In this document: positions 9,001 to 12,000 of the stretch, piece after piece
How the letters are laid out: every line of letters begins with the position of its first letter
Position numbering within the stretch: position 1 is the stretch's first letter
Assembly: GCA_000165345.1 (NCBI GenBank)
Contig: CM000432.1
Span: 544,001-608,000 of the forward strand
Direction of reading: 5' to 3'
Length of the DNA stretch: 64,000 bases
Made by a program: the position numbers

Positions 9001-12000
9001 GTTCAGATTTTTAAAGATAACAGCAAATTAAAGGCATATGAATGGGCAAACTGTTGCTGGAATTATTTAGGAACAATAACTGAAATTAATAATCTAAGTA
9101 GTAAAGTAAAATATTTAGGTGATAAGTACTTCGATTCTGGATTATATGATTTGGTTATTAAAATTGAAATTGATATTGATTGCAATAATAATAAAGTACC
9201 TTTTAACTTTGGCAACAGTGTAATAGAATTGAGCGAAAAGTTCTGTTTAAGGGAGGGAATCGACAGAAAATATTGTAAAGCAATTAGTAATTCAATAATA
9301 AATGGCATTAATATTGTTGAAAACGCCACTACGTTTAGTGAATTATTTGAATCATGTTTTGAATTCAAACTATTTAAAAAATTCAATATAGATAGCTTAA
9401 TTATCTCTTTTGGTAGAGAACAAAAAGCTTATCTAGATCAACTTAATACAAAAGATCGAATAAATTCAGATAATACTAGTTATCTTCTTGATGCTGAAAC
9501 AGAACATTTGAATGACTTTTTTATTAAATTAAAGAGTAAAATTTGCAATGAAACCAATTCTTTTACTTCATTCCAAATAAAATATATTGAAATGGACATA
9601 ATATACAAAAAACTATCGAATTTCATTGGAAATAACTCTCTTAGCGTTCCAATAATTGACTTGTGGAGAATCCTTGCGCTCCACCCACAAAGCAGTGATA
9701 TTCACAAGAAAACCGACCAAGGGTGGTGGCTATTAGCATTAATATTGAATGTCGTTGATTTGATTTCCATTGATTATCTTAATTATCCATCAATTAGTGG
9801 AAACAATGAATTCAGAGGCTCACTCTTTCTAATTTGTATTCGATTCTTATGCAATATGTTCCATAATTCTACAAATAGAGAAGCAATGTTGTCTAAGATA
9901 CAAAGTATAATATTAAATATCGATAAATCAACAACTAGATTCACAGAAAGAAACTTCCAACTTTCACTTAAGGAAAATACAAACAAAAATGCGATAGTTG
10001 CATGCTTAGCATTTATGTTTAACTATATTGTCGCACTAAACAATAAAAACTGTGCCTTTGTTGATTCAAGAAATTTAATAATCTTATATGTATGTAAATT
10101 TATCCCTTTAACAAGATGTGATGAATTTGCGGAATACGTTGATGAAATTCTTCATTATCAACTATTAATTCTTACTAACAATTATTATTACTTAATTAAA
10201 CTTGAAAGTTATTCTCATATATATATCCCTGAAGACAAAGAAATTCGAAATATTTCTAATCTGATATTGAAATGCAGTCGTTCTTCGAAAACGCTCTATT
10301 ATCAGCTTGTCACATCATTAAATATAATAAAGAACGGGAGAAACTGATAGCATTAAAAGGCAAATTTCATTATCAAGAATACTAACTATATTTGTTCATT
10401 CATCTGTTTCTTTTCTATGTTCCTTTCAATTGTTCTTGCCATTTCTGAAGGCGACTGTAGCCCTCCCATCACACTATTAAAATCGGTTGGAACTTGAATA
10501 TAGTTATATTGATTACCATTGGTAAAATTTTGCGCATCGTTTCTTTCAGGTTGCCACTGGAGCCTATCCTGTTCGAATACGTTGTGCCAAAGTACTCCTT
10601 CATACCAGTATGTCAATGAAATGCCGGTAGGGAGTAGAGCTACAAATATCGCAGCATAGAAACCTATTGAAAACTTCCAATCTATTGATGCATCTGACAT
10701 TAAGGTCCCTACTACACTTGAATAGTATAGTATTGAAACTAGATTAATGAATGAGCACGCTCCGCAAAAAATAGCGATGTAGTTTAATCTGAATAATAAT
10801 TAAAAAAAAATTGGTCTCGAACTCGCTTTTACTTACCTTTTGATCAACGTAACAGCATCAGGTGCTCCTTGAACAAACTTTGTATTTGATACTGTAGAAA
10901 TTAGAAAAATCAATATTTGAATGGTAATTAAGATTGATTCTGTAACAATACTTGGAGTTTTCGAACTTGTGATAGTTTCACAATAAGATATAGGATCAAT
11001 CATTGGATCTCTCCCAGAGAAGAATTTAGAAAATTGTTGATTCTCCATTGCATCTTTTTTGTTAATTTTATAAGCTTCTGAGAAACTGCATGCCTTATTT
11101 ATTGCATCTGTAAACGCTACTTTCTTTTCCTCATTGCTGAACTTTACTCCATCTAAATAATATTGTGAATATTCTGAGTTTGACTCAGTAATCCAAGCAA
11201 AAGCTAGAATTGAAAGAAACCCTAGAATTAAGGAGAGCAAGATAAGTAATGCCCTTAATAGCTTTAATATACTTTTATTCATTTCTAAAATACAAAAAGT
11301 TTGTAGGAAACAAATTCCGGCGCCCTATTTACATGCACCTGGTTTTTTATAGAATTAGATTAAAAAAAAATAACTTATGATATTCAAAAATGTTAAAACT
11401 CGCTAAATTTAGCTGAATTGAAGTGAATTTATTTAAATATTGTTTTTAATTGTTTAAATTCAATATTATATTTTTTTTAGAATTCAAGCTATTATAAACA
11501 ACTATTTGAGTTTTATACAAATGTAATAATTGTAACAATTAAATACTACTTATTTAACAAATATTTATTTAACAAATATTTATTATTATTTATCTATTAA
11601 TAAATTTATTTTTAAGTGACTACTTAGTGCACGAAAAATGTATAGCATGCATAAAAGACACTGCGACGTGACTAAGGCTAGCTCATATAATACAATTCTA
11701 AAAAAAAAAAAATTAATGAATACAAAATTTGCTGCTCTCTATTTCGCTTAAAAAAATAGATAATCTCTCGAGAATAAATGTCCCATAATGCATCTTCTAG
11801 AAATCAAGGAGGTGATACAGGTTTGGGAATAGGGTGGAAGCTGCTTGCAGCAGTTGGCTTTACTGCAATCGTTCTTCAGATAATATCAATAATTTTAAAT
11901 GGATGGAGAGTTGCGCCAGCGATCACGTACCAATATTACCAAAAAAGCACATTGAAGTCTTGGCAACTTCAATCATCGGAATATGGTTTGTATATTTACA

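What the first reader, a model, noticed from the sequence alone, without database searches (positions are those of the whole stretch)
10386..11282. Two track ORFs are the exons of one membrane-protein gene; the apparent stop codon of the upstream ORF is part of a GTAAGT donor
On the minus strand the ORF 11282..10833 ends ...ATC AAA AG|G TAA GTA AAA. This places the TAA inside a canonical AAAAG|GTAAGT donor. About 120 nt downstream an acceptor TTCAAG| opens exactly into the frame of ORF 10700..10386, with phase 2 conserved (AG|T gives Ser). The joined 258-aa product has an N-terminal signal-anchor, a Cys-containing luminal segment and further TM helices.
Basis: seen in the sequence. Interest (0 to 1): 0.5.

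Follow-up and report, generated by a model that had tools for sequence, protein, structure and literature searches.

The report
Split Cryptosporidium membrane gene, one short intron
Two small neighbouring ORFs on Cryptosporidium parvum chromosome 4 (old names cgd4_2340 and cgd4_2330) are the two exons of one four-helix membrane-protein gene, but the intron is 48 nt rather than the 120 nt proposed, and this corrected gene model is already in public annotations.

Summary
The window is Cryptosporidium parvum chromosome 4. ORF 11282..10833 (minus strand) ends in AAAAG|GTAAGT. An in-frame AG lies at 10717, and joining there gives 258 aa.

The acceptor is wrong. The frame of the downstream ORF is already open from 10799. 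A TTATTATTCAG| acceptor at 10789 gives a 48-nt intron and a 282-aa protein.

That 282-aa protein is identical to deposited C. parvum models QOY42208.1 and WRK31817.1. The 258-aa product is in no database searched.

In seven Cryptosporidium species the donor sits at the same nucleotide. The short introns are 48, 46, 47, 43, 53, 48 and 65 nt long.

Verdict: a real gene-model correction that is already known. Low interest.

The parts
11319..11337 (-). Promoter-like module TGCATG (11337..11332) followed by GGCGCC (11324..11319), at -55 and -42 from the start codon
   Evidence: Read directly. The same pair sits at the same distances upstream of the orthologous ATG in chipmunk genotype I and C. canis. 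A GCATGC/GGCGCC variant occurs in C. felis and a TGCATGCA..GGCGG variant in C. ryanae and C. xiaoi. Neither motif occurs in the 132 nt between the two ORFs. Promoter function is inferred from my own knowledge of AP2- and E2F-type upstream motifs in C. parvum. It was not tested.
10837..11282 (-). Exon 1 coding sequence (446 nt): Met1 to Lys148 plus the first two bases (AG) of codon 149. Old gene model cgd4_2340 (EAK87863.1, 149 aa)
   Evidence: All orthologues start at the same Met.
10789..10836 (-). 48-nt GT-AG intron, phase 2: GTAAGTAAAAGCGAGTTCGAGACCAATTTTTTTTTAATTATTATTCAG
   Evidence: The donor position is conserved in 7 species, with intron lengths 48/46/47/43/53/48/65 nt. Reading through gives an immediate stop in every species, and the introns align only with indels. 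One C. parvum read-set assembly has T10 instead of T9 in the T-run. A Nop53 intron in the same window has the same architecture.
10386..10788 (-). Exon 2 coding sequence (403 nt including TAG 10388..10386): third base of Arg149 to Ile282. It contains the old gene model cgd4_2330 (EAK87865.1, 104 aa, 10700..10386)
   Evidence: Exon 1 plus exon 2 gives 849 nt, that is 282 codons plus a stop. The product is identical to QOY42208.1 and WRK31817.1.
10717..10788 (-).
   Evidence: No indels in 7 species. Amino-acid identity is 0.58 against 0.55 and 0.56 in the flanks. Arg149, Leu150, Tyr152, Ile153, Cys160 and Ser172 are invariant.
10698..10700 (-). ATG that opens the listed downstream ORF. In the joined protein it is internal Met179
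   Evidence: This residue is Ile, Ile, Leu, Phe, Phe and Phe in chipmunk genotype I, C. canis, C. felis, C. ryanae, C. xiaoi and C. serpentis. A separate gene starting here is therefore not conserved.
11193..11252 (-). Transmembrane helix 1 (about residues 11-30)
   Evidence: Hydropathy. Helix 3-26 in the AlphaFold model.
10890..10946 (-). Transmembrane helix 2 (about residues 113-131)
10605..10673 (-). Transmembrane helix 4 (about residues 188-210). It is followed by a conserved tail of about 70 residues (TYWYEG..WHN.FEQDRLQWQ ... YIQVPTDF..MGGLQSP.EMAR)

Best explanation
This is one protein-coding gene of Cryptosporidium parvum chromosome 4, on the minus strand from 11282 to 10386. A single 48-nt spliceosomal GT-AG intron (10836..10789, phase 2) interrupts it.

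Splicing joins AG (10838..10837) to A (10788) to make the invariant Arg149. It yields a 282-aa protein with four transmembrane helices, a first external loop of about 80 residues with two invariant cysteines, and a conserved cytosolic tail of about 70 residues.

The protein is predicted to have the claudin/PMP22/MP20/TARP-type tetraspan fold. Relatives were found only within the genus Cryptosporidium.

The 2004 Iowa II annotation split the gene into cgd4_2340 and cgd4_2330 because it missed the short intron. Later curated annotations already carry the joined 282-aa model.

Shown here:
- exon and intron boundaries that alone are compatible with all seven orthologous loci
- identity of the product to deposited proteins
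- the predicted fold and its matches

Inferred:
- actual removal of the intron from the mRNA
- membrane topology
- any cellular role. By analogy with other claudin-fold proteins, the role would be as a surface or secretory-organelle membrane scaffold or auxiliary subunit, not an enzyme.
For: Species and identity
- The 149-aa ORF, the 104-aa ORF and the neighbouring 350-aa ORF match C. parvum Iowa II proteins exactly.
- The 282-aa product matches QOY42208.1 (CPATCC_001829/CPATCC_0020360) and WRK31817.1 (cpbgf_4002330) exactly.
- 282-aa orthologues are annotated in C. hominis and C. meleagridis, and in chipmunk genotype I, C. canis and C. felis.
- A 289-aa orthologue is annotated in C. serpentis, and it equals the short-intron model there.

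Gene structure
- Enumerating every in-frame GT..AG join in seven orthologous loci shows one solution common to all of them. It is the donor at gene nt 447 plus a proximal acceptor 43 to 65 nt downstream.
- Only the C. parvum intron length is a multiple of three. Read-through hits TAA or TAG at once in the five species where it was translated.
- Intron sequence aligns only with gaps, whereas the 24 codons that follow align without gaps.
- One C. parvum assembly has a 1-nt longer T-run in the intron.
- The Met that opens the downstream ORF is not conserved.
- A conserved TGCATG/GGCGCC module lies upstream of exon 1 and none lies between the ORFs.
- A second gene in the same window, Nop53, has a 46-nt intron of the same design. 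That gene was also split in Iowa II and joined in the later annotations.
- The IOWA-ATCC annotation was manually curated against RNA-seq.

Fold
- The AlphaFold2 model from 11 sequences has pLDDT 74.5 and pTM 0.63. It shows four long helices plus strands at 31-33, 40-42, 45-47 and 186-188.
- Foldseek against the PDB lists the same families.
Against: - No transcript, cDNA or peptide data could be examined. Splicing is inferred from comparative genomics and from other groups' curated annotations.
- An RNA-seq-based reannotation (Isaza 2015, PMC4637869) still lists cgd4_2330 and cgd4_2340 as separate genes. That paper says models without expression evidence of a discrepancy were left unaltered.
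- Several recent annotations still carry two genes: C. tyzzeri, C. parvum HLJ and a 2024 C. hominis.
- The public models for C. ryanae, C. xiaoi and C. bovis use long introns that skip helix 3.
- In C. parvum and chipmunk genotype I the distal AG is also in frame, so a minor alternative isoform is not excluded.
- The fold assignment rests on a medium-confidence model built from a shallow, single-genus alignment.
- No Pfam family matches.
Confidence: 0.9

Rival explanations
1. One reading: the intron runs from 10836 to 10717 (120 nt) and the product is 258 aa with three hydrophobic helices. This could be the main mRNA or a minor alternative 3' splice-site isoform.
For: The join is in frame in C. 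parvum and in chipmunk genotype I (118 nt there). AAG acceptors appear to be usable in the genus, because the only conserved-frame solution in C. canis ends in AAG. Public models for C. ryanae, C. xiaoi and C. bovis also use distal acceptors.
Against: - The 258-aa protein is not in the collection.
- In C. canis and C. felis the homologous AG is out of frame with the conserved donor.
- The skipped 24 codons are conserved without indels and with third-position bias in seven species, C. ryanae and C. xiaoi included.
- The distal AG is the third AG after the proximal CAG that follows the T-tract (read).
- Removing helix 3 breaks the four-helix fold.
Confidence: 0.05
2. There are two independent genes, as in the 2004 Iowa II annotation: cgd4_2340 (149 aa) and cgd4_2330 (104 aa), each with its own mRNA.
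For: These models persist in Iowa II, TU502, UdeA01, C. tyzzeri and HLJ records and in the 2015 reannotation table. Unspliced contigs containing both ORFs exist in read-set assemblies of unknown library type.
Against: - The start Met of the 104-aa ORF is absent in six other species.
- Only 132 nt separate the ORFs, and that gap lacks the upstream motif pair found before exon 1.
- 99 nt of conserved, open, helix-coding frame lie upstream of that ATG.
- Every orthologue found spans both halves, or is a model that joins them.
- Each half alone would be half of a four-helix fold.
Confidence: 0.03
3. There is no splicing. The two in-frame TAA codons are read through, or the locus is a decaying pseudogene.
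For: In C. parvum the two ORFs happen to share a frame, because 48 is a multiple of three.
Against: - The spacer is 46, 47, 43, 53 or 65 nt in other species, so read-through cannot give the conserved protein there.
- One C. parvum assembly has a 49-nt spacer.
- Both halves show substitution patterns typical of coding sequence and, in C. parvum versus C. hominis, low dN/dS values in the 2015 table.
Confidence: 0.01

Closest known systems
Deposited C. parvum gene model CPATCC_0020360 / CPATCC_001829 (QOY42208.1) and cpbgf_4002330 (WRK31817.1)
   Same: The 282-aa sequence is identical to the product of the 48-nt-intron join in this window. It is the same locus.
   Different: Nothing differs in sequence.
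Claudin / PMP22-EMP-MP20 / TARP (calcium-channel gamma) / LHFPL tetraspan fold
   Same: Both have four transmembrane helices, a large first external loop contributing beta strands, one strand from the second loop, and termini predicted to lie on the same side. The best structural matches by two methods are members of this group.
   Different: - Sequence identity in the structural alignments is only 11-15%, and no Pfam family matches.
- There is no GLW motif.
- The two invariant cysteines are 35 residues apart, in and after a helical insertion (residues 57-88), and not close together on adjacent strands.
- The long conserved C-terminal tail has no counterpart.
- The family is restricted to Cryptosporidium as far as HMMER can see.
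CLAMP (claudin-like apicomplexan microneme protein; PMC10690463)
   Same: It is also an apicomplexan four-helix, claudin-like membrane protein with a cytosolic C-terminal extension. The divergently transcribed neighbour cgd4_2350 (11778..12830) has the CLAMP-like architecture of four helices plus a proline-rich (GMGPP) tail.
   Different: The gene studied here has no proline-rich domain. A profile-profile comparison with the cgd4_2350 family is negative (probability 0.1%). Whether cgd4_2350 itself is the CLAMP orthologue was not established here (one search found only Cryptosporidium relatives).
Other Iowa II ORF pairs merged by later annotation: Nop53 in this window (59718..60963) and AGP1 (cgd4_31 + cgd4_32 = CPATCC_001476; PMC9973360)
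   Same: The error is the same kind: adjacent small ORFs that are parts of one gene. The Nop53 case has a 46-nt GTAAGTA...TTAAT...T-run...TAG intron much like this one. The AGP1 merge was supported by mass spectrometry.
   Different: The proteins are unrelated. For the gene studied here I found no published experimental confirmation.

Membership tests
Spliceosomal GT-AG intron | GT at the 5' end in a consensus donor context, and AG at the 3' end | tested here: met
   AAAAG|GTAAGT at 10837|10836 and TTATTATTCAG| ending at 10789.
Spliceosomal GT-AG intron | Pyrimidine-rich tract and a branch-point-like element shortly upstream of the acceptor | tested here: inconclusive
   A T9 run and TTAAT lie 12-16 nt before the AG. 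Similar TTAAC, TTAAT or TTAAA elements occur in the six intestinal-clade introns and in the Nop53 intron of this window, but none was seen in the C. serpentis intron. No validated Cryptosporidium branch-point model was available to score them.
Spliceosomal GT-AG intron | Position and phase conserved among orthologues, while length and sequence drift and the reading frame is not kept | tested here: met
   The donor is at gene nt 447, phase 2, in 7 species. Lengths are 48/46/47/43/53/48/65 nt. Read-through was translated in five species and hits a stop at once in each. Alignment needs gaps.
Spliceosomal GT-AG intron | Absent from the mature mRNA | not testable with these tools
   No RNA-seq or cDNA resource was available. 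Exact searches for either exon-exon junction in metagenome contigs found nothing. Only indirect support exists: the IOWA-ATCC model was curated against RNA-seq.
Claudin / PMP22 / MP20 / TARP tetraspan superfamily | Four transmembrane helices with a large first extracellular loop | tested here: met
   Hydropathy gives four segments for the 282-aa product and only three for the 258-aa product. The AlphaFold model has helices 3-26, 97-132, 143-181 and 190-227.
Claudin / PMP22 / MP20 / TARP tetraspan superfamily | Extracellular beta sheet built from loop 1 strands plus one strand of loop 2, and overall structural similarity | tested here: met
Claudin / PMP22 / MP20 / TARP tetraspan superfamily | Significant sequence-profile match (Pfam PMP22_Claudin, Claudin_2 or related) | tested here: not met
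   No Pfam family scores better than E = 0.15, and none of the weak hits is claudin-related. A profile search of PDB sequences gave no hit.
Claudin / PMP22 / MP20 / TARP tetraspan superfamily | W-GLW-C-C signature in loop 1, with the two cysteines about 8-10 residues apart (from my own knowledge of claudins) | tested here: not met
   Trp30, Cys65 and Cys101 are invariant. There is no GLW, and the cysteines are 35 residues apart.
CLAMP | Four transmembrane helices plus a cytosolic C-terminal proline-rich domain (PMC10690463) | tested here: not met
   The C-terminal tail of the 282-aa protein (residues about 211-282) has no proline-rich region. hhalign against the CLAMP-like neighbour family gives probability 0.1%.
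CLIP (CLAMP-linked invasion protein) | N-terminal signal peptide and a single C-terminal transmembrane helix (PMC13042080) | tested here: not met
   This protein has four hydrophobic helices spread over residues 11-210.

The most novel reading that the evidence does not exclude
The gene encodes a Cryptosporidium-specific second claudin-fold tetraspan. It is transcribed head-to-head from a shared 495-bp intergenic region with cgd4_2350, a very highly conserved four-helix protein with a proline-rich tail that looks like the CLAMP invasion factor. This arrangement is syntenic across the genus, including the gastric species C. serpentis. The two proteins could be co-regulated partners in the apical invasion or secretion machinery. 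If so, the genus would have an extra, lineage-specific component of the CLAMP complex.
Probability: 0.1. Interest if true: 0.5.

Novelty: already known. Interest (0 to 1): 0.15.

Why it matters
The practical value is modest. Several current records still carry the split or truncated models. These include Iowa II (the cgd identifiers used in most papers), C. hominis TU502 and UdeA01, C. tyzzeri, C. parvum HLJ, and the C. ryanae, C. xiaoi and C. bovis models. Expression, proteomic, selection and knockout analyses keyed to cgd4_2330 and cgd4_2340 therefore treat one four-helix protein as two unrelated small proteins.

The comparative analysis fixes the boundaries. It also indicates that three public orthologue models skip a conserved transmembrane helix.

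The claudin-like fold gives a first structural handle on an otherwise unannotated, genus-restricted membrane protein that lies next to a CLAMP-like gene. None of this changes what is known about splicing or about Cryptosporidium biology.

Tried and rejected
- **First structure prediction.** The model from 6 sequences had pLDDT 48 and was unusable. It was replaced by an 11-sequence run.
- **Structure search against afdb50.** That library was not available.
- **Paralogy with the neighbour cgd4_2350.** BLASTP gave E = 0.88 and hhalign gave probability 0.1%. Rejected.
- **CLIP identity.** Rejected on topology.
- **Whether cgd4_2350 is the CLAMP orthologue.** A homology search found only Cryptosporidium proteins. 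The papers I could open give no C. parvum identifier, and Sidik 2016 is not held. Left untested.
- **Exon-exon junction searches in metagenome contigs.** Neither junction gave a hit, which is uninformative.
- **Literature on cgd4_2330 and cgd4_2340.** The only mention is a dN/dS table row in Isaza 2015. Supplements of two further papers held nothing.
- **My GTAAG...YAG scan of the window.** One of its three candidate loci (337..484) lies inside the continuous ORF 66..1208 in another frame and is a false positive.
- **The only other ORF whose stop lies in GTAAG (41206..41204).** It is followed by an ORF with its own signal-peptide-like start, so it looks like a genuine stop.
- **Read-set (Logan) contigs carrying the locus.** They are unspliced, but their library type is unknown, so they count neither for nor against splicing.
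Full report
**What the window is.** Base composition is about 30% G+C. Three ORFs match Cryptosporidium parvum Iowa II proteins exactly: the 149-aa ORF (EAK87863.1), the 104-aa ORF (EAK87865.1) and the neighbouring 350-aa ORF (EAK87862.1, 'multitransmembrane protein with signal peptide and GMGPP repeat'). The neighbour is cgd4_2350, a repeat locus used in MLVA typing. The two ORFs of the finding are the old gene models cgd4_2340 and cgd4_2330, on chromosome 4.

**Checking the observation.**
- The minus-strand ORF 11282..10833 ends ATC AAA AGG TAA GTA AAA, so its stop lies inside AAAAG|GTAAGT.
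- TATTCAAG| ends at 10717. Joining 10837 to 10716 keeps the frame (AG|T = Ser) and gives 258 aa.

Two things were missed.
- The two ORFs are in the same frame. Only TAA 10835..10833 and TAA 10802..10800 separate them.
- The downstream frame is already open from 10799. It reads LNYIAIFCGACSFINLVSILYY, a hydrophobic helix, right after TTTTTTTTTAATTATTATTCAG| ending at 10789.

That proximal acceptor gives a 48-nt intron and a 282-aa product with four hydrophobic segments.

Taken alone, the donor match is not rare. Of the 45 ORFs of at least 100 aa in the window, 2 have their stop inside GTAAG. GTAAGT is, if anything, under-represented.

**Which join is real?**

*Databases.* The 282-aa product is present exactly as QOY42208.1 (C. 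parvum IOWA-ATCC) and WRK31817.1 (cpbgf_4002330). The 258-aa product is absent. Orthologues of 282 aa are annotated in C. hominis, C. meleagridis, chipmunk genotype I, C. canis and C. felis. A 289-aa orthologue is annotated in the gastric species C. serpentis.

*Loci.* I fetched seven orthologous loci and listed every GT..AG join that yields an uninterrupted reading frame.
- One solution is common to all seven: a donor at gene nucleotide 447 (A[AG]AG|GTA[AC]G) and a proximal acceptor.
- The resulting introns are 48, 46, 47, 43, 53, 48 and 65 nt long.
- Only the C. parvum intron length is a multiple of three.
- Read-through, translated in five of the species, hits a stop at once in each.
- The introns align only with gaps, whereas the 24 codons after them align without gaps.

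*Conservation of the disputed codons.* Those 24 codons are as conserved as the rest of the protein, with mean pairwise identity 0.58 against 0.55 and 0.56. Their substitutions concentrate at third codon positions. Arg149, the residue formed across the junction, is invariant.

*The downstream start codon.* The Met that opens the 104-aa ORF is Ile, Leu or Phe in the six more distant species examined. An independent downstream gene is therefore not conserved.

*Upstream motifs.* A TGCATG/GGCGCC pair sits 55 and 42 nt upstream of the exon-1 ATG, at the same distances in chipmunk genotype I and C. canis. Close variants occur in three more species. Neither motif lies between the ORFs.

*Intron polymorphism.* One C. 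parvum read-set assembly has T10 instead of T9 in the intron. A change of that kind is tolerable only in non-coding sequence.

*An internal comparator.* My scan for GTAAG...YAG joins of long open frames returned three loci in 64 kb: this one, a false positive inside a continuous ORF, and 60541..60586. The third is a 46-nt intron of the same design, with GTAAGTA, TTAAT, a T-run and TAG. It joins two further Iowa II ORFs into a 399-aa Nop53 protein. That protein is also present in the newer annotations, and its Pfam domain spans the junction.

**What could not be checked.** I had no transcript data. Exact searches for both exon-exon junctions in metagenome contigs were empty. The unspliced contigs from public read sets are of unknown library type.

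The 2015 RNA-seq reannotation still lists the two genes separately. It states that models without evidence of a discrepancy were left unaltered. The IOWA-ATCC annotation that carries the 282-aa model was manually curated against RNA-seq. A similar merge made in that annotation, AGP1, was supported by mass spectrometry.

A minor isoform using the distal AG cannot be excluded in C. parvum and chipmunk genotype I. Reading directly, that AG is the third one downstream of the proximal CAG.

**What the protein is.**
- No Pfam family matches, and there is no sequence relative in the PDB.
- A profile HMM search of 1.84 billion representative proteins finds only Cryptosporidium sequences.
- A first AlphaFold run on six sequences was unusable (pLDDT 48).
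- With eleven sequences the model reaches pLDDT 74.5 and pTM 0.63. It has four long helices, three short strands in the first external loop, one strand in the second loop, and a disordered stretch at residues 228-259.
- Foldseek returns the same families with weak E-values of about 1e-3.

I therefore describe the protein as having a claudin-like fold but do not file it in the claudin family. The sequence-profile test and the W-GLW-C-C signature are not met.

It is not CLIP, which has a signal peptide and a single C-terminal helix. It shows no detectable relationship to the neighbour cgd4_2350.

**Context.** Gene order is conserved in all the loci that extend far enough. A divergently transcribed four-helix protein lies on one side, sharing an intergenic region of about 455 to 570 bp. 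A convergent WD40-PFU-PUL (Doa1/PLAA-like) gene lies on the other side.

The neighbour cgd4_2350 family is 80-99% identical across the genus. It has the CLAMP-like architecture of four helices plus a proline-rich tail (compare). I could not confirm orthology to CLAMP.

**Verdict.**
- The acceptor, the intron length and the product are wrong.
- The correct 48-nt-intron, 282-aa model is already deposited for C. parvum and several sister species, so nothing here is new in kind.
- Two by-products may be useful. The public C. ryanae, C. xiaoi and C. bovis models probably skip a conserved helix. The protein has a predicted claudin-like fold.

Noticed in passing
window 59718..60963 (+), intron 60541..60586: A second pair of Iowa II ORFs (EAK87840.1, 278 aa; EAK87838.1, 124 aa) are the exons of one Nop53 ribosome-biogenesis gene. 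A 46-nt intron (GTAAGTATAAATAATTTATTTTCTCAATTAATATGCTTTTTTTTAG) joins them. The 399-aa product equals QOY42176.1 and cpbgf_4002640, and the Pfam Nop53 match spans the junction.
   Followed up: yes
window 11778..12830 (+): cgd4_2350 has four hydrophobic helices, a cysteine-rich first loop and a C-terminal GMGPP repeat. Copy number varies between isolates and species, giving proteins of 286-365 aa. The membrane core is 80-99% identical across the genus. The architecture resembles CLAMP, but orthology was not established. The gene is transcribed divergently from the gene studied here, across 495 bp.
   Followed up: partly
L002 3001..3887 (C. ryanae); L007 525..1406 (C. xiaoi); C. bovis KAH7647363.1: The public gene models (246, 239 and 241 aa) use long introns (146 and 162 nt in the two loci examined) that delete transmembrane helix 3. 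Introns of 53 nt (C. ryanae) and 48 nt (C. xiaoi) from the same donor restore a gap-free alignment with the other species. The C. bovis locus itself was not examined.
   Followed up: yes
window 10347..10386: Only 38 nt separate the stop codon of the convergent WD40-PFU-PUL (Doa1/PLAA-like) gene (+ strand, ends 10347) from the stop codon of the gene studied here (- strand, 10386). Their 3' untranslated regions must therefore overlap or be extremely short.
   Followed up: no
window 11444..11445 (L010 and L011 starts): Two contigs assembled from independent public read sets (ERR14760746, SRR17231405) both begin 162-163 nt upstream of the exon-1 ATG and run unspliced through the gene into the convergent neighbour. 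This could mark a transcript 5' end or just an assembly break. The library type is unknown. One of the contigs has T10 instead of T9 in the intron.
   Followed up: partly
window 20696..20779 (-): An 84-nt tRNA gene (Rfam 55 bits) for which ARAGORN reports a four-base anticodon 'gtag'. It is probably an intron-containing tRNA. A normal tRNA-Asn lies at 52362..52435 (+).
   Followed up: no
window 39955..42028 (-): Two adjacent ORFs (274 aa and about 360 aa) each begin with a signal-peptide-like hydrophobic segment. The stop of the upstream one lies in GTAAGC, but it looks like a genuine stop and not a splice donor.
   Followed up: partly
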